A stretch of 63,866 nucleotides of DNA, the filler included, from Cercozoa sp. M6MM (taxonomy: Eukaryota > Protista > Endomyxa: Ascetosporea), in the NCBI GenBank assembly GCA_040357565.1. It is 11 parts of 11 records of this genome, joined end to end, with 100 filler letters (N's around TTAATTAATTAA, not from the genome) between each part and the next. Parts side by side here need not be neighbours in the genome. Positions count along the whole stretch, not along the records: positions 37,711 to 54,933 come from JBDODJ010000267.1; 10 more parts are not named here. The stretch is one strand, 5' to 3'. Position numbers and translations under genes: made by a program. The first letter of the stretch is position 1. The number at the start of each line of letters is the position of its first letter. The notes under the pieces were generated by a model, which was not told the origin of the DNA, did no database searches, and saw only the letters and a list, made by a program, of their open reading frames with translations. This document shows positions 37,507-55,060 of the stretch, one piece after another.

Positions 37507-37710
37507 GGTACTACAGAGGCTGTCCGCTGGTTAGTGCAGCGTTTCTTCAGGGGGGGGGGGGCCTACAGTCAAGAGACGTGATGTACGTTCAGTTCGAGGG
37601 GCGGAAGCAGNNNNNNNNNNNNNNNNNNNNNNNNNNNNNNNNNNNNNNNNNNNNTTAATTAATTAANNNNNNNNNNNNNNNNNNNNNNNNNNNNNNNNNN
37701 NNNNNNNNNN

Positions 37711-37829
<119 letters not shown>

Positions 37830-37865
37830 ATATGTACATTATGCAGGTATAGAGATGCACAATAC

Positions 37866-39179
37866 CAGACGTGCGAGTGAGCCCAGCACGGTGGAAACCA
37901 CGCCACGCGAGTGGTTTAGTTTGCGGCACTTTCGCGGCTGCCACCTGTGCAGCCACCAGCAAGCACTCCGCGAGAACACACATGTGCGTGAAAGAGGCGA
38001 GTACAATGCACGCGGCAGCACGGCACTCGCGAGTTGCTGAGCACACGAGCGACGTCTTCGCGTGCCTGCTGACACTCGCTGCACACACGCAGTTACATGT
38101 AGAGAGACAGCGAACACACAGACACAGACACAGACACAGACACACAGACACAGTCACAGCCAACCTCATCAGCATCGGTGTCGCCCAGCACGGCGTAGTC
38201 GGGATCGCGCGCGTACACAATCTCGTACAGACAGCCATCGCGTCCAGTACATAGGATGCGACCCTCGCCTGTACCGACACACACCTCAAGTATACCCCCC
38301 GTAAACTAGGAGTCCACAATTTAGAAGCAAGGCTACGGGTTGTAATGATCCGTGTCATCTGCACGTTGTCCGTCGAGACTGCAACAAGATACTTGAGTGT
38401 ACGAGGATACTGATTGAAGCAGGATATACCACTGTAGTTGGTCTTGCGAACGCGGATGGCACCGTCAGCACCGGCGTCCTCGTCCTCGTACTCCACCGTG
38501 AAGAGCACGACCTCGACCGGCGTGGCCACCACGAGCAGGTGCGCCACGTGCCGGCCGAACACGCCGTGCCGCGGCTTGGCGAGAGCGACGGCGACGATGA
38601 TTTGACCGAGTGCATCCACCGGCACCAACTCACCTGCAGAACACATCAGTGGGACTCACCGCTACCACACAAAGCGGCAGAGTCCTACCAGTCTGCCAGT
38701 GCCACAACACGAGTTTATTGTCAAACGCGACGAAAGCACGGCGCAGCGGCGGCAGCAGACCCGCGAACGTCTTGCACACCACCTCGCCGTAACTGCGACA
38801 CCAAATTTTCGCGTATTTCACACACAACTTTCGCAAGGACTGTGCATTACCGCTCGAGAACAGGCGCCGGCACTGGCACAAAGCGCGACTGCATCAGGAA
38901 GTTCCAGTCAAAGTGGTAGGCGCCATTTCCTAGTTCCAACGAGCAAAATTCGCCTTCCTTTAAAAAGCGCATGTGCTTAAACGCTCGCATGTACCACGCG
39001 AAGGCAGACCAGCGAGTACATCGCGCAGTCTTTCGTCCTTCGCCAAAGCTTCCTAATAGCACAATCACGCACGGATAACCACAAACTCACTGTGCACTCA
39101 AGCAATATCAGAGACGTACTTCCACAAGACTGCGCGCTTCCTCGCGTGCTACGCCGCCTTCTTTACTCTGTTGCGACAT
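37866..39179 (-). CDS. NUP155: Nucleoporin Nup155/Nup170 N-terminal propeller, 3' partial
   Basis: GLLPPLRRAFVAFDNKLVLW, VALAKPRHGVF...LLVVATPVEV, STDNV, GRILCTGRDGCLYEIVY. Confidence 0.92.
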
Positions 39180-39494
39180 GCGACACACCTTCCGCGCGGA
39201 TACACGAGATGCCAGTGAGGCAAATTAATATTCGGTGCAGAAAGCAATGGTGCTGTTTGGGGGAAGTCTCCCCGTCGGCCGCGCTATGTGTTGTCTGAGT
39301 CTTGCAGCTCAGCGTACCACACGCGCAGTCACCTGTGTGCTAGCAGGGTGGCGCTATTCTAGGTTTTGGTTAACGCTGCGCTTTCGGTCCAAAACGGGAC
39401 GATCGGTCGGAGCGACGGCCTAGGGGATGATTTGTACCAAAAAAAAAAACAACCTCACACACTCTCTTTGTGTTTTCACTCTCCATCACTCGCA

Positions 39495-40187
39495 ATGGCT
39501 GGTACACTCCCCGATGATTTGCGTGAGAGTGCAATTTGATGCACGCTCGATTTTTGCCGTTTCGGGGGTATTTTGTTTGTCGTGCTGTGCCCTGGCATGC
39601 TCTCGCAGTGTTGTGACCAGCATCCACGTGAGAGTTGCCTGAGTGTGTGCGCAAAGCGATGGCTGCGCTGTGGCCCGCTAGTGACCTGGACCGAATCGCC
39701 CCGGAACAGGGATGAATCTAGCTCCGCGTGTTCTCGGCTTGAGCTGAGTTCGCGTGCGACGTGGCCCGGCGCTTAGCCCCAAGATCACACAAGCCCTGTT
39801 GTGGGCCCTGTGTTGGTTTGTACTGTTTGTGGGCGATTGTGCACAGCTTCGAAGGCTAAGGTCGCCGCCAAGGCGCAGAAGAACGGCTCGTTCGCCAAGA
39901 AGGCCAAGAAGGTGCGCACGAACGTGACGTTCCACGCCACCAAGACGCTCAAGCTGCAGCGCAAGCCGCTTTACGAGCGCAAGCCGGTCGCCCAGCGCAC
40001 CAAGTTCGACAAGTTCGCTGTCGTGCAGTTCCCGGTGGCCACGGACACGGCCATGAAGAAGATCGAGGACAACAACACGCTGACGTTCATCGTCGACGTG
40101 CGTTCCAACAAGCGTCAGATCAAGCAGGCCATCAAGGAGCTGTACGAGGTCGATGTCGCCAAGGTCAACACGCTGATCCGCCCGGAC
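39495..40187 (+). CDS. RPL23A: 60S ribosomal protein L23a/uL23, exons 1-2; terminal exon not found
   Basis: ATGGCTG/intron/exon 39847-40187: [33 protein letters not shown], then a GTAAGT donor. Confidence 0.95.
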
Positions 40188-40269
40188 GTAAGTTTCGCTT
40201 TTCGATCTGCCTGTTGGGTTTGGCGTTTCGGGCTGCTTCTGCCTTTGGCTGCTCGGCTGCTTGGGAGAG

Positions 40270-40380
40270 TGTTTCTGGGGATGACGACATACCACACAGA
40301 CCTGTTCTGAAACGTGGATGGAATTCAACACTCTGCCGCGGTTGCTGTAGACATGTGATATGCACCACTCTGACCCAACA
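40270..40380 (+). ncRNA. Intronic box C/D snoRNA with two 18S rRNA guides (U25/snR56-like and U32A/snR40-like)
   Basis: C-like ATGACGA at 40281; guide CACAGACCTGTT + D' CTGA (40295-40310); guide ATGCACCAC(T) + D CTGA (40360-40373); flanking stem GGAGAGTGTT..TGGG / CCCAACACTTTTTCC. Confidence 0.85.
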
Positions 40381-40743
40381 CTTTTTCCGAGACACGTTCT
40401 CGAGACCTTGGCAAACAGTGCACTCAAGGCTTTTGTGTGTGATTTGACTTGGTGCGAAATATCTTTATCCTTTGGCTGCTGCTTAGGACGCAACAGATCG
40501 GTTTACTAGGTCGCCAACCTGTGTCTTGTTAGAGTGAAAGCTACAAACTACACTAAAACTATAACTTCCTATGTTACTGTTAGTCGACATCAATTACTCG
40601 GCGTAGAATCATATCATGCCAAAATGAAGCAAGAGCTGGAAACCAAAATAGCCGTGATGTGATTACACATCTATTTATGCCAGTGACTCAGACTCGGGGG
40701 AAATAATCGACTAGCGTAAACCAACGCAAGGAGCAACATTCGG

Positions 40744-41947
40744 CTAACGCCTGCGACTGCGTCGATCGCGGCTTCGACTGCGGTCTCTGTCGCGACTGCG
40801 CTCGCGTCGTCGGCGCCTGTCGCTCCGATCCTCGTGAGACGTGCTTCGGCGCTCTCGGCGACGACTGCGCGAGCGGGAGGACCTTCTCCTGCTGCTGCGC
40901 GAAGACGAAAGCCGCTGGCTCTTGGATTTCGCGCTGGAGGCGTCACTTTGCTCGGAACGCGTGTCACGATCGTCCACCGAGGCGCTGGTGGAAGAGGACT
41001 CGCCTCGGTACTCCTTGGAAAAATCGCGTTTCTCCACAAGCAGTTCATCGCCTGGACGAGCGTGTCGGGGTCGACTGTGCTTCTACAGACACACGCACAT
41101 CCAAGTATGTATCGAATAAATATAGATAGAAGAGAAGCAGCGTGCGTACTTTCTTGCCCTTGTCAAGTTTCTTCTGCAACTCATCGTAGGAGGCACCGAG
41201 TCCGAGTCGGTCCGGCCGCGGCTTGGCCACACTCACGTCGACCTTCTGACGAACGCGTCCGATGCCAGTGTTTGGGTCCTACGCAGTTGAATTGTGAAAG
41301 CAAGCGAAGACTCAAGTTGTGAACGTAAAACACGGCGTACCCAGTTCATGCCAAGAAGCATGGCGCGGCCAAAGTCTTCGACCGGAACACGCTCGTACGT
41401 GTCGTGATCGGGTGCTTCCGGTCTCATTTTGAGCTCATGATGCAGCTTGGCTTCGTCGCTGGCGTAGCGATCAATGCCAGGAACACGGTTGCGCAACAGC
41501 AGCGGCTGCTGCTCGAGTAACTTGCGCGCCTTCTCGAGCTCCTCCGGCGTCGAAGCGACCTTGCTGTCATCACCACCTTGCCCGCCAGCAGCGTGCGACT
41601 CATCCGTGCCATGCAGCAGGGCATTTCGGATTCGGTCGTTGCTTCCATCGGTGCGCCACTGCGTCTGCTTGAGCGGGATCACCAAGTGCTTCTTTTCCTC
41701 GTCTGCATACTCAATGAAATTCAAGTAACACACTTGATCGCTTAAGAAACGCTGAATTAAAACCCAACTGACCAGCATCTGTGCGTCCATCCGCGCGCAT
41801 AGACAAACCACCAACGAGTGTCACCTTTGGTTTGTCGTCCTTCTCGACTTCGAATGCACCGGCAAGCGGCTGAGCCTTCTTTTGCTTCTTCTTGCCGGCT
41901 TTCTTCTTGGAGCCTGTCATTGAGAACGACAGGCCCGAGAACGACAT
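40744..41947 (-). CDS. Spp2/MOS2/GPKOW-like G-patch protein with RS-rich tail
   Basis: LVIP motif; YERVPVEDFGRAMLLGMNW...KPRPDRLGLGA G-patch. Confidence 0.85.
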
Positions 41948-42145
41948 TTTCGGCCTGTCTACACCTATGATACAACCAAGTGGCACACCCGGGGCACAAC
42001 AACAGGTCGTTAGCCGCACTACGCTCGGTTCAGTGGAGCGCTGGTTTGTCTTTATTATTATCTTAATTCGAATAGAACTTTAACCGACTCGGGCGAAAAC
42101 GCAGGGATTTAGAGCTGTTTGACGCTTTAACAGAGTGAGTTCACA

Positions 42146-44014
42146 ATGGCTGACGAGTGGCTGTTGTCTGTGGATGAGGTAGAGGCGTGCGATATCGCGC
42201 GATGGTATCCGCGACTGGAGCACGTGTCGTTTGACACGGTACAAAGTGCAAGTGCTTTGTGTGTAAGTGTATGTCGGAAAGAGGGTCCGCGCAGGAGCTG
42301 CTGCCGCTGGAGAAGGATGTCGTGGCATTTTTGCGTCGCGACGGTGCCGCACTGCCGCGTAGTTGTCGGCAGGACGCGCAGCTGCAGGAGTCGCAACTCG
42401 AGTCGGTCGGGCAGACCATCGAGTGGTCCGACGATGAGGATGCCGACACCGTCGACGACGGTGGTGCTGACACTGATGACTTTGACTGTCCTGAACTGAT
42501 CACGCGTATCAACGAAACCGTCACGCGACTTGGCGGCACCGTGCTGCCGAAACTCAACTGGAGTGCACCTCGGTAGGGCAGTACCTTTACCCCCCCCCCC
42601 CCTCCGCCTCCTTTTTCTTGACTCATGTGTGCAGTGACGCCGTGTGGAACTCGGTCTCGCAGTCGCTTCAGGTATACTCCAGCCTTACCCCTTTACCCAT
42701 TTTAACCCCTTTACTCCCCCCTCCCCCCCCCCCCCATACAGTGCGTGGACGCCAACGACGTATTCGCGATGCTGAAGGCGTCGCGTTTCGCGTCGCATGA
42801 TCTCTTCCGCGCGTACGACTGCTGCTGCCTGGTCGAGCACGATGAGGTCAGTTTTCTGAGATAGTCCTCTTTGTATCTCAGCTGTAGTGTGTAACCTTTG
42901 GTGTTTTGGACAGGACAAGGTGGCCGAAATTGAGACACGTCGACGAGAGGGACCGCGCGGAGGATTCGTTCTCGCGCTGCGTCGCTTTGATCACGACCTA
43001 ACGCACGCGCATGAGGTCAGTCTTCCTGTTTCTGTTTCTGTAGGTGGATGTTTGGGAAAACGCAGTTCCGCTGTTTTGTGGCGGGTCGTCGCTTGCTGCG
43101 CGTGACGCAACGAGACCACCGCACGCGTTTCGACAAGCTGCACGAGGTATTGTGACCACTGGCACTCTGGTCGAGAGTGATCGCACACACTGACTGCGTT
43201 TCGACACACATCCGTGCAGAAAGAAACGCAAGATGCAATCAAGTCAAAGATTCTGTCATTTTTCGAGTCATACTTGCGTGACTTTGACGTGCCTGATTGT
43301 ACTGTTTACCTCCCACCCCCCACCTCTCTTGATATTCCTATACTCCTGCAGTCGTATTCGATGTCGTGCTAGACAAGACGCTGTCTACAGTGACACTGGT
43401 GGACGTGGCGCCCTTCCATCCCAAGACGGACAGTTTCCTGGTGCCGTGGCCGCAACTCCACCGCCTGCGGCGGGAGGCTTCGGTACCCCGACACGAACCC
43501 TCACCCCTCCTTTTATCTCCCCCTCCTTTTATCTCCCCCTACTTTTATCTCCCCCTCCTTTTATCCCCCTTCCTTTTATCTCTCCCTCCTTTTATCTCCC
43601 CCTCCTTTTATCTCCCCTCCCTCCTCGTACAGGAACAGAAACTGCAGCTCGTGCTGCAGGACGAAACGCACGTCGGTCGCAACGACATGATGCAATACGT
43701 GCTGCCGCAGGAACTGGTCGACGTGTGCAATGCCGACGCGGTTGCTGCCTTTGCTGAGGCGTGTCGCCAGGGACACTTTGATGCTGTACACATCTTGTAT
43801 TCTCCTACTTGTTTGCTCTGTTACGATTGGCACACTTGTCCTATGCAGGGCAACCTGCCGGAACACTTGCTGCGACCCGACTCTCAAGCGGTACCTCACT
43901 GTTTGCGTGCAAGGACAGAAATATGCTTGCTTGAATGATGCGTGTGAGTTGTAGGGAGAGCTGCCAGTGTCGGACGCCAAATTGCGCTCTGCTGATCAGC
44001 TGCGCCGTCTGTAA
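42146..44014 (+). CDS. CDC123: Cell division cycle protein 123 (D123 ATP-grasp, eIF2 assembly factor)
   Basis: CDIARWYP, LGGTVLPKLNWSAP.DAVW, MLKAS, EFRCFV, TQRD, FDV, LVDVAPF. Confidence 0.93.
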
Positions 44015-44266
44015 ACTTAGGGTCGAACCCGCTACTGTCTCCCTTATTTCTATCTATTAGCGTACACTTTAAATAGACTGGCGTGGGTATGCGATCCCTG
44101 CGCTACCACAGCAGCTTTACCACTTTTTCACTGCCGTACTAGTTTGCTTCAGTTTCAGCATGCCGTAGTTTGCTTCTGTTTCAGCCTGCCTTTGTTCGCT
44201 TTGGTTTAGTGAACGTAACGTGCAGTGAAAATACAGCACAATGGTTGAGGTGCTGACCCTTCGGAA

Positions 44267-47200
44267 TCAAAGGCCTCTCGAGGCAGCAAAAGCTAGGGCG
44301 CGCATGCTTTCTTCAACTGTGCGGTATGGAGAAAAATGGAGTCATCAAGACATACAGTAAACTGAACATGCACGCCCGCCGTGAGTGACTAGGTAAATTT
44401 ACCGTGTGTGGTGTGCATGCTACGCGCCATGCGACGTGGTCGTTCTTGCCGCTGGCGATCTTCCTCGTCCCAATTGTCACTCACGTCGTATGCCTGTAGT
44501 ATTGATGCATGTGACTACAGGTACGTACGATGCAAGTACCTTGTGTTCCTCCACGTCGTCTTCAGCGTGTTGCAAACGCTCACGTCGTGCACGACGGTAG
44601 TCCAGTGGTGCTCGGACCTCCTGTATCAACAGCAAGTTTCCTTTAGATACGAGAGTGCAAGTGGCCCACAAAGCACGTCTAACCGGAGGGTGATGCAGTT
44701 CGTGCTGACCGTAGAAAGATTCGCCATCTTTGTCCCAAACCAAAGTCGACCACGACGATCTATGCACAGACAGTGATGGTAGGAAGCGATGATATCGGAT
44801 ATACAGGGTACAACTGGTACCCAACTTCGTCGTACATCTCTGCGCTCTCTTCGCGCCCGTGCTCCGGCCGAGCTCGGCGTCGTCGTCTCAGTTCTTCCAC
44901 CTGCACTCGCTGTGTTTCGTCGACATAGACGTCTTTGTACTGTACTGTGTCACGAATGACGGCATGAGCCGCCCGGACTGGAGCAGGTCTGCGATACTCA
45001 GAGGGTTCCATATTCGTTGGTACTGGTACGCAACTGAACGCACCTGCGTTCGATTGTTTCGCGTACGTGCCACTAACGCATCAGTAGATACTCGTGTCGC
45101 TTGCAGTAAAACTATAGGGCAGATTGTGTGTACACAAAGAGGTCGCAGCGGCGTCAACATCGAGTCGGTGTCAACTTTGTCAAAGTCGATCTCTAAAATA
45201 CAGTGTGCGACAAAACTGGAATTTCGACACGATAAAGGGAGGGTCATCGAAGATACCTTCGGTGCTCTTGGTACGCAACACACGTCGCCACTCGAGCAGC
45301 ATCAACGCTTTGTGCGTCAGCAACAGGCGGTCCCTTTTGATTTCAACCTGGTCTCTGGGTACCTACCGTGCAACTCGCGGTATCGATCAATTGTTGACAT
45401 GAATGGCTTTGTCAATTTACCTTGTTGTTGACGATAATTTCAACGATACGCTGGACACTGACCTCTTCGTCAGGAGTTGTCGCAGTGCTTTCGTCGAGTG
45501 TGCCGTAGCGACGCAAGAAGTCGCAGTGTCGCATACAGTAGCAACTGTTCTCGGCCACACACAGGAAGAGTAACGATGTGAGGTGAAATTTGAAACCTTG
45601 GTACAGTTGGCGCTCTCTGTCATGCAGGTCAAAGCGCCAAAGGCGCAGCTGCGCTTCAAGGTGAGAGACGTCCGCGCGGATGTCAGTAGCAGCGGCGTCG
45701 ACTTCCGCGCGGACGCACACGAACAGGAGAAACGCGCAGCGTCGTATCGCAGCCGCCGTTTCTTCAGTGTGTTGGCTGCGGATGATTCGATACCCCGAGT
45801 GATATGTGGATAATTGTATTTACACATCGACGTACCAAACATGAATTAAAGGGTCGCACTGACGCAGCGCATCGACGTGCACCAACGCATGTGCGCGCAT
45901 CTTGGTGCTTTCGTTGTCGTAGTAGGTCAGCGTCGATCGCAATCTGCAGACAATGATGAAATACGATAATGCATGTCCCAGTTTGCAAGTACCGAGGGTA
46001 GGTCTCGTGCTCGGGAGGCCCGACAATACGGCGATAGAGTCGTTTGCAAAAGCCAAGATTTTCGCTTTCTTCAGATCCGTAGTCGATCCATTCGTGTGTC
46101 TATGCAGGCATGTCAGTACCGACAAAATCTGGACTCATACTTGATGTACGAGTATAATTAAACTTGATCACCAGAACGGCGTCCCACCGTGACTGTGTCA
46201 GTCGTGTGCCATACACTGCACATAAGGATACGATCGAACAGATGCCAGCAAAGGAGGGCCAGTTAAAAGGTGCAAGGTATTACATATCCGAGTGAGTCGG
46301 CAGTTGCTGCGAGAGAAGCACCAAGCTGCGTCTCTGGAGACTACAACATGCGGACACTCAAGTTCCAGAGTGCACAAAATGAGTTCTGGTGGTCTAGTCT
46401 ACCAGTGGAACAGCGAAGCGTCTTTCCAATCTCGAACATATCATAGGTCGACTCAGTGACTTGTGTCAGTGTGTCGCTGCTGTCGCTGACATCGCGACAG
46501 TGCCGAAGATTGACATCTATTTCGCCTTCAACGGTCTGCACAGACAGCCAGTTCTCTACTTGCGTAGAAAGCAGTACATTTTGTTGTGATACAACATGTT
46601 GCGCGAGGTGCTGACTGAGTGTTCGAGCCAGGTTGGAGGTGGACTCCCTTTCTCTGCGCAGAGAAACACAAACAGTGCCTTTTTTGCCGGCCTACAAGAC
46701 TTCGTCTGTAAACTACAGTTTATTTACGCGTAGTACCTAGAAGCCCGTAATGCCAGTCGTCGCATATCTTTGAGCAACCGCGGCCACAGTTTCCTGCATA
46801 TGCCATGTTCGTGTAATACACTCTAGAGCAGTCTGGCAACGGGACTATGTACTACCGTTCTTTGGTCCACTCGTCATTCTCATCTTCAAAACTGTCTCCT
46901 TCAAGGTCGTCTTTTTCCCTACCAGTACATAAACAACTTGGAGTTTTGCTACGGCACTGTAGCATACGACGATAATCAATATTGGTACTGCTTCAAGTAG
47001 CCCTGTCTGCGCGCGTATACTCCCAATGCTGAGGCGCGCAGAGTCTCTGCAACCGCAGCAGCAGCGAAAGCATCCAGGCCGTGGTGACTGCACAACCCTC
47101 AATCCCCCGATACAAACAGTCATAAATCCTTGAGTAATACGGGGGAGATCGTTCGTCCAAGGGAGCACCCGCATTTGGACCAAGTGCAGGCGATGCGACA

Positions 47201-47430
47201 AACAGAACACAGTTAGGATGTTGTGCCATCTTATCCGTCAGCTCAGTTTCATTGTCTCGGCCCTGCGTGCAGTTGAGACATAGGCACAGTGAGGAGAAAT
47301 TGTCCATGAAAACTGATGCTACAAGTGCCCAGGAAATACGATCGACCACGAAGGAGAACACTCGCCAGAGTATGTCATGCAACAAGCTGTCTCTGTTGTC
47401 TTCTGCCTCTTTCGCACTCAGTGCCTGGTG

Positions 47431-47515
<85 letters not shown>

Positions 47516-49352
47516 ATTTACAATGGCTTTAAGTGTCGTGTCGCTAGAGCGTGCCCAGGGCCAGCCTTTCTGATCCACCTCCGCGTGCTCCGTCTCCTCT
47601 TCCACAGGCACGCGCGCGCCTACATCGGCCGTGTCGTAGGTCAACTTGGTCCGAGACACCAGCAACTGTGCCAAGCTGCCGGCCGACACTCCTGCCCGCT
47701 TGAACCGTACGGCCTGGTAGGAACACTGTTGTTCTGAAGGATATTTTACCCAGCAAGTCAGCAGCATTGCGAAGCGGCTCCATGCTCGAAATGGTAGCCT
47801 TCTACTCCGAGTGTCTTTTTACCGTCAAAGTCATAAACAAAGCGTAGGGTACCCCGCGATTCTCGTCAAATTTGACAACTCGGAGAAAGAGTAGCGCGCA
47901 CAGCACCCCGCACAGGTCGGAACACAGGTGTCGCGACACCCCTAGACAACGCAATGCCGACTCAGCCGCGGCACATCTGCACCGACCCTTCTTATGATTG
48001 GTGTAGTCTTTCTTGTCACATGAAGCTACTGTACCTACGCTGCAGTGCTTGCACGCTTTGAGTGAAGAAGCGGCGATTCGGCCGGCGTCTCAGCGGCGCA
48101 AAGGAAGCGGCGCGCACACAGGCGCTACGGAGGGCTCCACGAGTGTCGAACTGCAGCAACAGCGTTGTAGTGAAGGGCACCGCATCTCCTCCTAGATACA
48201 TGCACAGTTAATAATGTGAATATTGTTAGGTAAAGCACCAAGAAATGCCATACTAGTACCGTCAAAGGCATTGCGCAGCCATGTCTCCCGGCAACGGTGA
48301 TGGTGGTGTTGTCGATCACCGTTTCTAGTGTTTTTCCCGGGATTTGCGATTCGTCCGGTCGGCACTGAAAACAACTGTCGCAGCACGAACATAGCCATTT
48401 GGAGCTTCACTTGCACGTGCGGTATTGCATCCTCATCAATCGACTGTGCACACCTCGTCGAGTCAGGACAACTGGCTAAGAAACAGCTACCTGTGTGGCA
48501 CACTGTGCGAAGAAGTCTATGACGTGCTCGAGATTGCGATGTGCCGCACCCGAGGCACTGAGAGCAAACGATCGGTGAGCAGGTATTTATGTTTTTTTCA
48601 AGGGACTTTGACATACCTCCCCGACAGCAGCACGCACTGCGGTGCCGAGAAAAGTACGGCGTCGCGGTGTGCACGTGCGCACAGTCCAAACAAGTGCGGC
48701 GGCATTGATGGCCGGTGCTGCGACGATGCATACCGACGCGCCACCGACGGTTCCACACCGTGAGGAACGGTGGTGTCCTCGGCGTCAACACTAGCTTGAT
48801 CAGTGTGAACGTACCGTCCCACATGGGATCTGTCGATCCCGACGGCGACATCGTCAACAATCTCGACTGTCGAAAAGAGACGACGCCTGGCTGCATCAGA
48901 TGCGACCTGCTTGGCCCAGTTATCATACGGTAAGCCTGCTGGTTTTGGTTCTGGGAAGAAAATGACTGTCTTAAAAAAAAAACAAAAGTGTACTTGCACG
49001 TCAAGCGGGAGTTACCTTGCTGGAGTGCCTGCTCTGCGTACTGGTACGTTCCGGGTCGTGGCTCTGGGGGGTACCCAGGTTGTGTCCCTTGCGGGTACCC
49101 GGGCTCCGGCTCTTGTGGGTACGCATATCCAGTTTGTGGCCCTTGCGGGTATCGATCTTGCTCAGCGGAAGGTGCTAGCTGCCGTTGCTGCAGTCGCTCT
49201 GCTTGGTACGTCTGAACCTGCGGGTACTCGTTCGGTGCAGTGTCGCCAGTCGGTGCTGTTTGTGGCTGTCTCGGTAGTGGATATCGCTGCTGCCCGTATC
49301 CTTGCAGCTGTGGTTGTTCCTGACTCCACTGTTGTTGTCCCTGGGACTCCAT
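44267..49352 (-). CDS. Highly divergent, probably catalytically dead myosin-motor-domain protein (ends approximate)
   Basis: Myosin landmarks in order: MPPHLFGLCARAHR, QCVLLSG, LQFDTRGALRSA, LCALLFLRVVKF, LRNAADLLGV, EAEDNRDSLLHDILWRVFSFVVDRIS, QLR, MRHCDFLRRY. Confidence 0.78.
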
Positions 49353-49864
49353 ACTTGCTTGAATCGCTTCTTATATACAGACGACCTTCTTTGAGGATCC
49401 GGGACACCTTTGAATTCAGTGCATTGTTCAGTTTTGCTTGAGGTGCACATGCGAAAGTCCGAACTACCTCCAGCGCGCATACAATATACACGAGAGATTT
49501 CAGTACACCTGAATATGAGTTATTCAGAGTCTAAGTTATTCCTGTTCCTTTTCGTCCGGCTTCGCCTACAGATCCAACTGAACGAACTGGCAGCTGACAG
49601 AACAGCGATGATCGTAGTACAGTATAAATTACTAGTAGTTTCCCTGTAGGCCTGTGTCAGTCCTGGGGGTGAGTCACAACAGCATATCCAACTTCCCTTT
49701 TTTGAAGTTAAGTCGTCGGCGTCGGCCGGCGCCTCGTCTTGCTGTCATTTCTTTCAACACCTAGTTAAACCGAACGAAAACACGCACATAATTCAATTAC
49801 TGAACGTACCGAACAAAAGCTGCCAGTTTGCAAAGTAATCGAATTAAATCAAATCATCTTCGTA

Positions 49865-50616
49865 TCAAATGGCATGCTTGTGCAACACAATTGAAGTTAG
49901 TAGCGAGCACGTCGACGCGCCTTGAGTCGTGACTGGCGTCCGTAGGCACGCGTCCGTCTTCTGTCGTTGTAGTTCCTGCACAGGACACCAAAGTGTAGCC
50001 CCCCACAGAAGGAACAGAGAGCAAAATAGGGAGAAGTACTGGCCGCGCTGCCTGGCCTGGCGGCGACGACGTGCCATTTTCCGACGCATGTGGAAGAGCT
50101 GCTTGCCACTCAGACTGTGCTTCTTCCTGTGTTCCAAAACCAGACGTGTCTTACACAAGAGGAGAGCAGCCAAGTGTTCCCGCAATTCAATGTACTGGTA
50201 GTAGTCGGCAATAGCCTGCTGGAATTTGCTGGCGTCAGAGTTCTCACTGGCTTCGCCGTTGTCTGCACCGCCACACACACCGAGATACGGACCAAACGAG
50301 CTCTAGCTACAGACGCAATACTCTCCTTGAAGTTGCGTGTCATGGCCTTCTCCAACTCAGCTTTTTGTTCCTCACGCACTTGCTGACCCACGACTCGCAA
50401 CTCGGACTGTACAAACACTCAAACACCCATAGAGCACATGGAGGCATCCGCAAGTGGTACCAGCAGCTCGTCCATGCCAAAATCAACACCAGCCTTTAGT
50501 CCAATCGTGTCGAACGACGAGATGAGAGCGTCGATGTCAATGTCCTTTTCGAGATAGGACTCGTCGTCGCCAGCGCCGTTGCTCACTAGACACAGATCCC
50601 CACCATACACCGACAT
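49865..50616 (-). CDS. Hypothetical protein
   Basis: ATG at 50616 and several GT-AG-bounded exons; no motif recognised. Confidence 0.5.
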
Positions 50617-51057
50617 TCGCGCGTTCCTACATTGGGTGTACCCGCGCCCAGCGTGTCTGCTTGTTTTTGAGTGTTATTGGCCTCCATAATACGCCGCATA
50701 TCGGCCGCAAAATCATTCTCAGCCTCACCCCCGCCGAAATCACTCTACGGTACAAAGATGACAGCGCACACTCGGCACAACACCATAAAACAACACACAT
50801 CGTACCAGCGCGGCGAAACGGTTTTTCTGGGGCTCTTCCGACATTAGCGATCACAATTAGTCTATCCTGGTGTCACACGCGCCTCTAAATTCGTCAGATT
50901 GCCTTCAGACGGCGCTCCATCGGCTCATGTGTTTTTCGTCACCAATACTCTTTCCTACGTGCTGCGGCGGTGTGAGTTAGGTGCGAAGTTCCCATCGGCG
51001 TCAATTGGTGCGCCGGCGGGCCATACCGTCCTATTTTTAGTCGGTGGGTGGCAGTCA

Positions 51058-53697
51058 ATGCTACTGACCCTTCCGCGCGGAACGCGTTTCCTTCTGGTGG
51101 TCTCTGGCGTTTTGCTACTATTGGCTGCTTGGAAGTCGCGTAATTGGCGGTACTCATTGCTGTGGCAGGTAGCTCCTCCTTATGATCCTTAGTGTTTCCA
51201 AAGAAAGGCTTTTTTGTGGCGAGTAGCTGAAGCAGCGAAATGCGGTGGAAGGCGAGTTGCCAAAAAGGATACGCAGCGTCAATGATGGTTGGGTTGATTC
51301 GGCACGCAGTTCTCTTTTGCAGGTTTCTGGTGACAAAGTCTCGAACAGTGAAACTGGCAGCGATGCAGTAACTACAGATCGTGAGTGGTCCAGTCTGGTG
51401 CAGTGCGTACCCGAAAGCCCAGAAACGTCATCTCAAGTGCGTGTGCACGTGGTGTTCCTTTCGATGCCTAGACCTTCGTGGCACGAGTACTTTTCTCTTT
51501 GTGTTGTGTGGTATGAAATGTGATTAGTGCGCATTGCTTGTGCAGAAACTTGTACCTGTCACGCGCGGTGCTTTCACTGAGAGAGTCGTATTTTCTGCAC
51601 CGCAAAAGCACCATTGAAAGCAACAAGGACAATGCTGACGTGAGATGGAGCGTTGGAGTGATGACTCCTTCTTCCACACTTGAGTATCTTTTGCAAGCAT
51701 TTATTCTTCCACACTCTCGTTTGTTTAATATGTGTGGTATCTACAGTGAGCATGGTGAACTTCGTATGCTGCGACGAAGACACCTTCTGTCGTGCCTGCA
51801 CGAGTAAACTTTTAGTGCTCCCATCAATTTCTTTCTTACTTTCTTTGACTTGAATGATGACTCAGGTTCCATGCGGAAGAAGCCAGGCGTGCTCGCATGG
51901 CAGCTGCGTAAATTCTGTCTTCCTAGTCTTTTGGGTCATGTGTGACCGTATTCTTGTGCATAGCACCGGCGAACACGATGACGAAGAAACTCCAAGGTGC
52001 CTGGCTTTTGTTGGAACGGTATGCCGTCTTTGCTTGAATTATTGTACAATCAGACAAGCACTCAAAGCGATGACGAAGCGAGAGCGCTGGCGGTGGCAAC
52101 ACTTTGGCAACTACGCCGCTGCGCTGCGACTCGTGAAAGATTCCGAGTACCGACACTTCTTTGTGTTCTGCACTTTATTGATTCGTGCCTACTTTTTAGA
52201 TATATTCTGCTGCTCGAGGATGATGTCGTCATGTCGCGGGACTTTGTCAAAACCGTCGAAGCTTTCGTGTCGCCCAACAGTGTGTCCAATGTGTTCTCGA
52301 GCAGTGGCCAGCAATTAAACCAGCCCGCTTATCTGCGACTGTTTCTTCCGGAACTGTATCTGGGTTGGGCGGGTGAGAACTGGCATATTCAAGTTCTGCT
52401 GCCGCTTGGTAGCCTTGCCTCACCATGTTAGAGTTTTTCTGGATTGGTGTATGCCTTTGTACACACAACAGGAGTCGCCTTTGTGGTGGGTGCACTCTGG
52501 CGCCTGCTTCAGCCGTGCTTGGGCAACGCTGTCGATACAGGCACCACTGTTGCCAAGTACACCTCTATGGACACTCATACTTTTGATGAAGACGGCGATA
52601 TTGAGGACGGCACACTCGGCAAAGTGCATCTGAGTCTTCCGTGGCCAGGCCATGCAGACGAACTTGCGTACCTTGTTGCTTCCACCGGTGGATTATGCGA
52701 AGGCTCCTGCAAACTCCTTGTGTACAGGAACAGAGATGCACATGTGTACTCAAGATCACCAACGCCGTCGGAGTGCGAGTTCCCAGCATCTCCGCGGTTC
52801 ACCATGAGCAACTCCCGGGCTTCAACATTGCTGAAGCACACAGTGAGACAGTCGATCCGGACACTGCGGTCGCTGTCGAGATCGGTGCACTTTCCGAGTG
52901 TCGTCAATGGTCTGATCGCCGGCGTTACAGCTTGGCTGCTTCTGGTGATTGTTGGGTACGTCCGAGTCAGGTTGTTCCATTTGAGTGAAACCCAGACTGT
53001 ATCTGCCTTGACAGCAAACAAAACATCACGATATGGCCATTGTGGCCGTACCGCGATGACACCGTCAGTGTTGCTACAATCAGTGCCTGTCTGCAGGGCA
53101 ACCTGTACCCTCGCGATGCTGCTCTCCATATCGCTGGTATGCTCCACATGAACTCACCCGAGTTTCGCACTTACCTATCCTGTATGTAGACGAGTTTGAA
53201 AAGGCACAACAGTCGCTGCTGATGAAATTCGCTACTGCCGAGGTTCAGGAAGAACTGCGACAACGAGAGATTCGTGAGGTACCTCTGACCGTACTTTTGA
53301 CCTAATGTCTTCCCAAAATCTCCATGTTCTTGACGATGTGATCCAGAGGACCGCAAAACCTCAAGAGGACGAGGACGAGTGGGTGCGACCGCTCGACATC
53401 ATACTCGGCGATATTGTGAGGGACATGCCGAAACATAGTGCACTGCAGTACTATCCGTCCCTTTTGCAGGTACCTCTATAGTTTTGTTTCTCGTTGGTCT
53501 GCGAGGATACACTGTGTGCCAAAACAGCACGTGGGGGTCGTGTCTAGTGGCCAGAAACCTCGGCCGTGGTACAAGTTCCCGGACTCCAGGTACGATTCTG
53601 CCAGACCTTTCGTCCTCTGTTTATTTCAGTGGGTATCTGTTGTTATTGTGGTAGGTCAATACGTGACGTCGACAAATTGTTTCCAGAAGACATCTAA
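51058..53697 (+). CDS. PGAP4/TMEM246-like (GnT-IV-related) glycosyltransferase
   Basis: N-terminal TM; NYAAAL...YILLLEDD; YLRLFLPE; two internal hydrophobic segments; ACLQGNLYP; PSLLQHVGVVSS. Confidence 0.7.
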
Positions 53698-53834
53698 AAC
53701 TTGATCGCTTTGGAATCTAACGCAATAGATATCCATCCCTTCAGTTTACCCGCCACGGGAAACATCGCACCTCGTCGGATGCCGTCGGATGTCGCTAGCG
53801 TAAGTACACCCGATTAAGCGGGTGTACCCCGGAT

Positions 53835-53862
53835 TGGCGGAGCGTTTTTTGAAAAAATCCAA
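53835..53862 (+). repeat. Dispersed intergenic repeat, partial copy B
   Basis: TGGCGGAGCGTTTTTTGAAAAAATCCAA versus copy A TGGCGGGGTTTTTTGAGGAAAAATCCAA. Confidence 0.55.
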
Positions 53863-54117
53863 CCGTTAGGCGTTGTGGGCTTTCCTAAGTTTCCTTCACG
53901 GACCGTATTATTTGCCCCCGGGTGTCTGGTATGTTTAGGTACACCGCTGGAAGGTTTTCACTTTATTGACGATAGGGTTTCCCCGCACAACGCAATCCGG
54001 GATATGCATACCCGATTAAGCTGTCATACGAGAATGCTAGCGTCAGGAATATGTTGAATACAACATTCGTTCGCTATGGATCTATTACGTCAACGCAAAC
54101 GAAACAAACACGTTCGA

Positions 54118-54930
54118 TCATTGGTATCGACCGCGCTGTCGGTGGTCGAAGCGACGAACGCCGCCGCGACGATCGCGTCGCGCCAGCAGACGCTCGTTCT
54201 CCTGTACATACATACATGGATGCATTACACATCTCAGCAAATTTGCCCCAGAGCACAGGCAGAGCAGAGAAAGGTGATGGTACAGCACGGATGGCGCGGT
54301 AGGCCTTGACCTGCACCTCCCAGGCCGGCTCGAACACCTGTCGCAGGTACTCGCCGTACTTCTCGGTGATCTGAGTGGGATGCTCGATGCGCAGCTCCTC
54401 ATTTGGATGCGTGTTCAGCAGCATAAACTGCGCGGGAGTTACACACAAGATAGAGGTAGAGGTAGGGGAGAGGGTAGGGTACAGCAGCGCCCTCGTCGTC
54501 GTCGCCGGCATGCAGACGCTCAAGCGCGCGCATCATACGTTCGCGCAGCTTGACGCGCTTGAAGGCCGCCAGGTCAAAGTCGCGCAGCAGCAGGTAGCCT
54601 TGCGACTGCACCAGGTGCAACGGCATGCCCTGTGCTCAGCCAAGTGTATATGTACACACAGACATACATACAATATATACATATATACATGTAAGGTACC
54701 TGCTGCGGCTTAATGACGTGCAGCACGTCGCGGAACACGCAGCGCAGAGCGCACACGATCTCAACGATCACGACCGACAGACGCGTTTTAATGCGCAGCA
54801 GCATGTCGCCGCCTGCCAGTCAGGGTAAAGGTTAGGGGCGCCCCCGGGGGGGGGGGTAAAGAAGTTGATCGATGTGTTACCCTCGGCAACGTTCTGAACG
54901 GCAGCCAGCACACGCGAGAAGTGGAACACC
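54118..54930 (-). CDS. Hypothetical protein, 3' part
   Basis: GC3-rich exons (YLLLRDFDLAAFKRVKLRERMM; EHPTQITEKYGEYLRQVFEPAW) with GT-AG introns. Confidence 0.65.
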
Positions 54931-55060
54931 TAANNNNNNNNNNNNNNNNNNNNNNNNNNNNNNNNNNNNNNNNNNNNTTAATTAATTAANNNNNNNNNNN
55001 NNNNNNNNNNNNNNNNNNNNNNNNNNNNNNNNNCCCCCCCCCTGTTTCAGTCGACGAGGG

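What the first reader, a model, noticed from the sequence alone, without database searches (positions are those of the whole stretch)
40188..40743. RPL23A has a strong donor but no terminal exon: trans-splicing candidate or truncated snoRNA host
Seen: exon 2 is intact with strong codon bias and ends at IRPD/GTAAGT; an intronic-type snoRNA follows; the convergent G-patch gene stops at 40744. Established: eukaryotic uL23 continues with a conserved G.KKA(Y/F)V.L...DAL.VAN.IG tail of about 25 residues. I could not find that exon in 40188-40743 or, reading by eye, in the remaining 14 kb of this gap-free contig. Only scattered fragments appear (LKAFV near 40423, VAN near 40510), in AT-rich codons and not collinear. 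Inference: (a) split gene completed by spliceosomal trans-splicing from another locus, as known for Giardia split introns, here with a snoRNA in the 5' half-intron; (b) recent truncated paralog kept as a snoRNA host; (c) local misassembly.
Basis: partly seen in the sequence, partly recalled or inferred. Interest (0 to 1): 0.8.

Follow-up and report, generated by a model that had tools for sequence, protein, structure and literature searches.

The report
Missing exon is an assembly collapse
The ribosomal protein gene RPL23A of this marine amoeba looks cut short, but transcript-like contigs of the same species carry a normal end, and the absent exon was most likely dropped by the genome assembler between two near-identical copies of a small intron RNA, so this is likely an ordinary gene and not trans-splicing.

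Summary
In detail: no uL23 tail exon lies on this gap-free contig. The likely cause is a misassembly. Contigs from 2 of 6 non-source runs laid (two studies) leave exon 2 exactly at the 40188 donor and read on in frame as G-K-K-K-A-Y-I-K-L-T. One of them, after 80 letters absent from the contig, returns to this same locus at an AG acceptor (40486-40513, 27 of 28 letters). A normal tail plus stop needs 77 letters. In the deep DNA run, the 109 bases holding the box C/D snoRNA (40275-40383) have 1.97 times the depth of their flanks and two extra single-depth flanks. The simplest path is exon 2, snoRNA copy 1, tail exon, snoRNA copy 2, 3' UTR exon, with about 370 bp collapsed. I did not see the tail exon in DNA, so its place in the loop is inferred. 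The organism is Cercozoa sp. M6MM (Lemnamoeba sinaloensis). A long-read assembly is published and can settle it. Trans-splicing would need two jumps: about 2%.

The parts
39495..39501 (+). RPL23A (uL23) coding part of exon 1 (ATG GCT G)
   Evidence: sequence; gives the MAAS start of the NCBI model P0002; no laid contig joins exon 1 to exon 2
39502..39846 (+). intron 1, 345 nt, GT..AG
   Evidence: sequence; X3, X4, X5 and X7 contigs begin at 39846-39847
39847..40188 (+). exon 2 of RPL23A, PF03939 plus PF00276 positions 3-55 of 86
   Evidence: covered without differences by contigs of X3 (343 letters), X4, X5, X7, X8
40189..40194 (+). 5' splice site GTAAGT, used
   Evidence: X3 and X5 contigs leave the DNA exactly after 40188
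40189..40486 (+). assembled 298-nt 'intron'; inferred chimera of the 5' part of intron 2 and the 3' part of intron 3
   Evidence: inference
40275..40383 (+). 109-bp exact repeat present twice in the genome; inferred point of collapse, where about 370 bp with the roughly 81-nt tail exon are missing
   Evidence: X1 record 2 depth 1082.9 against flanks of 611.5, 474, 579.8, 533.7; two extra flanking contigs
40276..40377 (+). box C/D snoRNA: terminal stem 40276-40279 with 40374-40377, C box AUGACGA 40281-40287, D' 40307-40310, D 40370-40373
   Evidence: sequence; Rfam snR56, snoZ119, snoU25, DdR1 hits, all below gathering score; stem in the fold
40295..40306 (+). D' guide, 12 nt complementary to SSU rRNA; predicted to direct the site of yeast Gm1428 (snR56, U25)
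   Evidence: snR56 = Gm1428 in the table of PMC2794176
40360..40369 (+). D guide, 9 Watson-Crick pairs plus one G-U with SSU rRNA of L041; predicted to direct the site of yeast Gm1271 (site number recalled)
40423..40437 (+). 'LKAFV' bit: intronic; 12 of 15 letters shared with the flank of the second snoRNA copy
   Evidence: 2 such matches in the window, 1.36 expected, so only its position is suggestive
40485..40486 (+). 3' splice site AG of the last intron
   Evidence: pyrimidine-rich context; the X3 contig rejoins the DNA here
40487..40513 (+). start of the last exon, likely 3' UTR only; its end is not determined (at most about 40743)
   Evidence: X3 record 12, 28 letters from 40486 with 1 difference
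40744..40746 (-). stop codon of the convergent G-patch gene

Best explanation
RPL23A here is likely an ordinary cis-spliced four-exon gene whose third exon was likely lost when the assembler merged two near-identical intronic snoRNA copies. Shown: transcript-like contigs splice the 40188 donor to a normal uL23 tail that is absent from the contig, then return to an acceptor at 40486 of the same locus; the snoRNA stretch is present twice in the DNA data. Inferred: the true order is exon 2, intron 2 with snoRNA copy 1, exon 3 (about 81 nt: 77 to the stop plus 4 of UTR), intron 3 with snoRNA copy 2, 3' UTR exon. The assembler entered the 109-bp repeat from intron 2 and left it from intron 3, dropping about 370 bp. 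Each excised intron would yield the same double-guide box C/D RNA, predicted to methylate two SSU helix-34 guanines.
For:: X3 (study P3) and X5 (study P5) give the same 30 letters after 40188, in frame GKKKAYIKLT; 9 of these 10 residues sit at the first or second rank of their column among 87 homologs, and K at column 2 is fourth. X3 record 12 matches 39846-40188 with 0 differences, has 80 other letters, then matches 40486-40513; 87 of the 95 homologs in which the anchor motif was found (119 examined) have exactly 25 residues after the D, which needs 77 letters after 40188. X1 contigs form an X around 40275-40383, depth ratio 1.97, extra flanks of 134 and 216 nt at single depth. If these two abut, the loop is 260 nt; minus an 81-nt exon this leaves 179 nt of intron flank, against 189 in the assembled intron. 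X1 shows one unbranched record over 39300-40304 and no loose end at 40188, so no second or intronless copy of exon 2 appears. The strain is reported over 99% homozygous, with mean intron 82 bp (PMC13746701); the draft was a short-read Supernova assembly (PMC11069148). Same-gene snoRNA duplication is the usual route in chicken (PMC2653536).
Against: The tail exon was not seen inside a DNA contig: only 30 letters of each extra flank are displayed. That the two extra flanks abut is assumed. X3 and X5 are other samples than the sequenced strain, and their RNA nature is a guess (X5 is labelled DNA?). A 109-bp repeat is shorter than a typical read, so a collapse is not inevitable (own knowledge). 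Left and right flank depths sum to 1191 and 1008, not exactly 1083.
Confidence: 0.88

Rival explanations
1. Still a misassembly, but an arm swap: the two snoRNA copies sit in two separate loci, and the assembler joined RPL23A's left arm to the other locus's right arm.
For: An X-shaped graph allows this path equally. The 28-letter return match has 1 difference while exon 2 has none.
Against: The RPL23A transcript itself contains 40486-40513 and joins it at an AG, so the right arm belongs to this gene unless those 28 letters are duplicated too. The flanks of the two copies diverge within 17 bases of the repeat, and no second X1 record was laid at 40486.
Confidence: 0.06
2. The assembly is right and the tail exon lies elsewhere, beside the second snoRNA copy; it is spliced in by two trans-splicing steps, out from 40188 and back to 40487.
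For: The exon is absent from the contig, and its genomic place was not seen. Genic trans-splicing exists in Giardia (PMC5224939 passages).
Against: It needs two trans events around one internal exon while a direct 40188-40487 cis splice is avoided. The duplicated segment and the length sums are explained without it. The shared stretch is an identical copy, not shown to be a complementary arm. No title among the 8 listed of 13 papers holding Rhizaria, trans-splic and spliceosomal intron reports genic trans-splicing in Rhizaria (listing only).
Confidence: 0.02
3. A truncated paralog kept as snoRNA host, with a complete RPL23A elsewhere making the full-length mRNA.
For: NCBI's model P0002 reads through the donor into 39 unrelated residues, as a truncated gene would look.
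Against: Full-tail contigs match this exon 2 at 343 of 343 letters and end in this locus's downstream exon. Exon 2 is at single depth without a branch in X1. No second M6MM-named protein is among the 120 listed of 343 hits.
Confidence: 0.02
4. A real deletion by recombination between the two copies exists in part of the culture, and the assembler reported that minor allele.
For: Direct repeats can recombine (general knowledge); contigs cannot show which paths the reads take.
Against: Both extra flanks are at full single-copy depth (580 and 534 against 611 and 474), so the deleted form cannot be common. Losing the tail of a single-copy uL23 should be lethal in a haploid cell (inference).
Confidence: 0.02

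Closest known systems
Collapsed tandem repeat in a short-read assembly (PMC7757076, passages read)
   Same: Two copies merged into one, depth about doubled over the repeat, extra flanks in the graph, no N gap left behind.
   Different: Here the repeat is only 109 bp and is interrupted by a unique spacer, so a coding exon is lost and a false protein end was annotated (P0002).
Ribosomal protein genes hosting cis-duplicated intronic snoRNAs (human RPL23A with SNORD42A/B, PMC8393311 table; chicken intragenic paralogs, PMC2653536)
   Same: Likely paralogous box C/D RNAs in neighbouring introns of one ribosomal protein gene, here also RPL23A.
   Different: A different guide (snR56/U25-like plus a second SSU site, not SNORD42/Um116); the copies are identical over 109 bp, so recent or homogenised; the second intron would start about 4 nt after the stop.
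Giardia lamblia trans-spliced (split) introns (PMC5224939, passages read)
   Same: A donor with no matching exon in the local DNA as assembled.
   Different: Giardia joins a 5' and a 3' transcript from distinct loci through base-paired intron halves and a cleavage motif. Here the mRNA returns to the same locus and only an internal exon is absent.
snR56 (RF01188), snoU25 (RF01298), DdR1 (RF01559)
   Same: Same D' guide and D' box, aligned across the models.
   Different: All scores are far below the gathering thresholds (25.3 of 54 bits at best), and this RNA has a second guide before box D.

Membership tests
Giardia-type trans-spliced intron | 5' and 3' parts of the mRNA come from distinct loci | tested here: not met
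   The X3 contig ends in 40486-40513 of the same locus; one contig, 28 letters
Giardia-type trans-spliced intron | extended base pairing between the two intron halves | not testable with these tools
   No genome held, and only 30 letters of each extra flank are shown
Giardia-type trans-spliced intron | 3' end formation inside the 5' half-intron, with no usable cis acceptor downstream | tested here: not met
   An acceptor at 40485-40486 is joined in the transcript
Truncated paralog or pseudogene host | a second complete copy of the gene | tested here: not met
   Single-depth unbranched X1 record over exon 2; one M6MM protein among 120 listed hits; whole assembly not searchable
Truncated paralog or pseudogene host | its own mRNA lacks the tail | tested here: not met
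   2 of 2 same-species contigs that cross 40188 carry the tail
Collapsed tandem repeat | doubled depth over the repeat | tested here: met
   ratio 1.97
Collapsed tandem repeat | two entries and two exits in the assembly graph | tested here: met
   X1 records 1 and 3 enter at 40275-40304, records 4 and 5 leave at 40354-40383
Collapsed tandem repeat | the extra exit leads back to the extra entry and holds the missing exon | tested here: inconclusive
   Lengths fit (179 against 189 nt of flank) but the inner letters were not displayed
Box C/D snoRNA | C and D boxes with terminal stem | tested here: met
   the C box has one departure from RUGAUGA (consensus recalled)
Box C/D snoRNA | 10-21 nt rRNA antisense next to D or D' | tested here: met
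   12 nt at D' (target locus fetched with a motif holding this site, so the independent support is); 9 plus one G-U at D
Rfam snR56 / snoU25 | score at or above the gathering threshold | tested here: not met
   0 hits at gathering; 25.3 of 54 and 16.4 of 50 bits
Box C/D snoRNA | accumulates as a small RNA and directs methylation | not testable with these tools
   No small-RNA or methylation data were available

The most novel reading that the evidence does not exclude
The assembly is correct, and an internal exon of an essential ribosomal protein lies at another locus and is spliced in by two trans-splicing steps, with a copy of the same snoRNA on each partner: a double trans-spliced gene in Rhizaria.
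Probability: 0.02. Interest if true: 0.9.

Novelty: not a real feature. Interest (0 to 1): 0.07.

Why it matters
As biology it matters little: a normal gene. As curation it matters a little: NCBI model MHM6MM_004856 (P0002) ends in 39 residues of read-through intron and should not be used for phylogenomics. It is also a clear warning that duplicated intronic snoRNAs can silently delete exons of ribosomal protein genes from gap-free short-read contigs and mimic split genes. A side result is a predicted double-guide snoRNA in a rhizarian; none of the 8 papers listed for Rhizaria, snoRNA and ribose methylation contains the word Rhizaria (8 of 918 listed), which is a weak search.

Tried and rejected
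No whole genome is held, so the tail could not be searched in the rest of the assembly. Micro-exon reading of 40376-40743 (LKAFV, DAT, VAN bits between several AGs): rejected, because the real tail is KKAYIKLT and is absent. RNA editing of a degenerate exon: rejected for the same reason. No RNA holder is on record among the 19 runs listed; this is no evidence either way. 7 of the 19 runs were laid. In X2, X4, X7 and X8 the same-species contigs stop inside exon 2 and say nothing about the junction; X2 and X4 also hold diverged contigs that cross 40188 into a KKA tail, which I set aside as other organisms. Metagenome loci (40 loci) gave only distant homologs, at most 79% DNA identity over more than 100 nt; three genomic ones have an intron a few codons upstream of this donor, which does not bear on the question. 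I considered laying X1 on such a homolog to see the exon in DNA but used the last call on the junction instead. The repeat search of 37800-54933 shows no second snoRNA copy among the 20 direct families and 25 inverted pairs displayed, of 48 each. The four readable supplements of PMC13746701 hold no L23, uL23, snoRNA or RNA-seq. The look-up of earlier findings returned nothing. The snoRNA fold is no more stable than shuffles (z 0.10), as is usual for C/D RNAs. L042 is not an Rfam SSU match and was not used.

Full report
Setting. The window is a chain of contigs; the finding lies on one of 17,223 bases (37711-54933) without N. The exon-2 peptide matches P0002 at 100%, an NCBI model named Cercozoa sp. 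M6MM on a contig of 17,223 bases. M6MM is the rhizarian amoeba now named Lemnamoeba sinaloensis. Its draft was assembled from short linked reads with Supernova (PMC11069148, passages). A later HiFi assembly reports over 99% homozygosity, 13 introns per gene of mean 82 bp and 99.5% GT/AG sites (PMC13746701: abstract, sections 5 and 45, passages).

Observation. Exon 2 (39847-40188) is open, has GC3 0.95, and covers PF00276 only to position 55 of 86. It ends at GTAAGT. No tail motif occurs in six frames of the window. P0002 simply reads through the donor into 39 unrelated residues. Of 119 homologs examined, 95 show the anchor motif, and 87 of those have exactly 25 further residues. The G-patch gene stops at 40744-40746.

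What the transcript does. 19 runs were listed and 7 laid. Of the 6 that are not the possible source, two have same-species contigs that cross the donor. X3 and X5, from studies P3 and P5, both leave the DNA after 40188 and continue with the same 30 letters, which read in frame G-K-K-K-A-Y-I-K-L-T (translated by hand). This fits the homolog columns and has no match in the window at up to 3 mismatches. The X3 contig matches 343 of 343 letters of 39846-40188, has 80 other letters, then matches 40486-40513 at 27 of 28. Position 40486 is the G of a pyrimidine-rich AG acceptor. The tail with its stop needs 77 letters, so the missing exon is about 81 nt and the exon from 40487 is likely 3' UTR. Caveats: both runs are other samples, their RNA nature is guessed (X5 is labelled DNA?, yet its contigs cover exon letters only), and the return match is one short piece from one low-depth contig. 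The other four runs stop inside exon 2.

What the DNA does. In X1, flagged as a possible source of this DNA, five contigs were laid. One covers 39300-40304 (depth 611.5) and one 40354-41300 (474). Between them a 109-nt contig, 40275-40383, has depth 1082.9, or 1.97 times the mean of its neighbours. Two more contigs touch it: 134 nt entering at 40275 (579.8) and 216 nt leaving after 40401 (533.7), both continuing with letters not in the stretch. So the snoRNA segment exists twice. If the extra exit leads to the extra entry with the same 30-nt overlap as the other joins, the loop is 260 nt. Removing an 81-nt exon leaves 179 nt of intron flank, close to the 86 plus 103 of the assembled intron, and the contig lacks about 369 bp. 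X1 shows no loose end at 40188, so no intronless or second copy of exon 2 appears. The extra exit resembles the LKAFV stretch at 12 of 15 letters (2 matches in the window, 1.36 expected, so only suggestive), which would make that bit a duplicated intron flank.

The snoRNA. Boxes C, D' and D and a 4-bp terminal stem are present. Rfam gives nothing at gathering level and weak concordant hits to snR56, snoZ119, snoU25 and DdR1. The D' guide pairs over 12 nt with SSU rRNA; because L041 (SSU by Rfam) was fetched with a motif that contains this site, the independent support is the Rfam alignment. The D guide pairs over 9 nt plus one G-U at another SSU site. snR56 guides Gm1428 and snR40 Gm1271, both in helix 34 (PMC2794176, passages); matching the D target to Gm1271 is my recall. 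Expression and methylation are untested.

Mechanism. Shown: the donor is spliced to a normal tail; the transcript returns to this locus; the snoRNA segment is two-copy. Inferred: both copies lie in successive introns of RPL23A with the tail exon between them, and the assembler merged them. Same-gene snoRNA duplication is common (PMC2653536, passages), human RPL23A hosts SNORD42A/B (PMC8393311, table passage), and repeat collapse in short-read assemblies is well known (PMC7757076, passages). An intron about 4 nt after the stop would escape junction-triggered decay under the usual 50-nt rule (own knowledge).

Rivals. An arm swap between two loci is the same kind of error and is hard to square with the return to 40487 (0.06). 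Trans-splicing needs two jumps and differs from the Giardia cases, which join two loci through paired intron halves (PMC5224939, passages) (0.02). A truncated paralog is contradicted by the tail on this exon's own transcript and by single depth (0.02). A minor deleted allele is contradicted by the full depth of the extra flanks (0.02).

Verdict. Not a real feature; interest 0.07. The one step not seen is the exon inside the loop. A BLAST against the published long-read assembly decides it. Papers not named above were seen as listings only.

Noticed in passing
window 39502-39846: Intron 1 is 345 nt, four times the species mean of 82. 39585-39800 folds somewhat better than shuffles (z -2.18, 4 of 200; stretch chosen by eye) and has H-like and ACA motifs near 39782-39791. 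It may hold another intronic RNA; no Rfam hit at E up to 10.
   Followed up: partly
window 40189-40310: NCBI model MHM6MM_004856 (P0002) reads through the donor and ends in 39 intron-derived residues that overlap the snoRNA: a wrong protein end in public databases.
   Followed up: yes
window 39755-40077: An X2 contig covers 92 nt of intron 1 plus exon 2 without a difference: unspliced RNA or DNA of the same species in another sample.
   Followed up: no
window 39847-40188: Contigs identical to exon 2 occur in six other runs from six studies (X2, X3, X4, X5, X7, X8), so the species is present in several unrelated samples.
   Followed up: no
window 37663-38655 (-): The upstream divergent gene has a Nup133 N-terminal-like match (PF08801, E 6e-07), a likely nucleoporin.
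   Followed up: partly
window 43485-43638: About 10 tandem copies of a 16-nt C/T-rich unit, and long GT repeats at 37711-37823 and 47435-47514, in line with the simple-repeat richness reported for this species.
   Followed up: no
L041 1-1282: A contig filed as viral in IMG/VR carries eukaryotic SSU rRNA (E 3.7e-165), probably cellular sequence.
   Followed up: no
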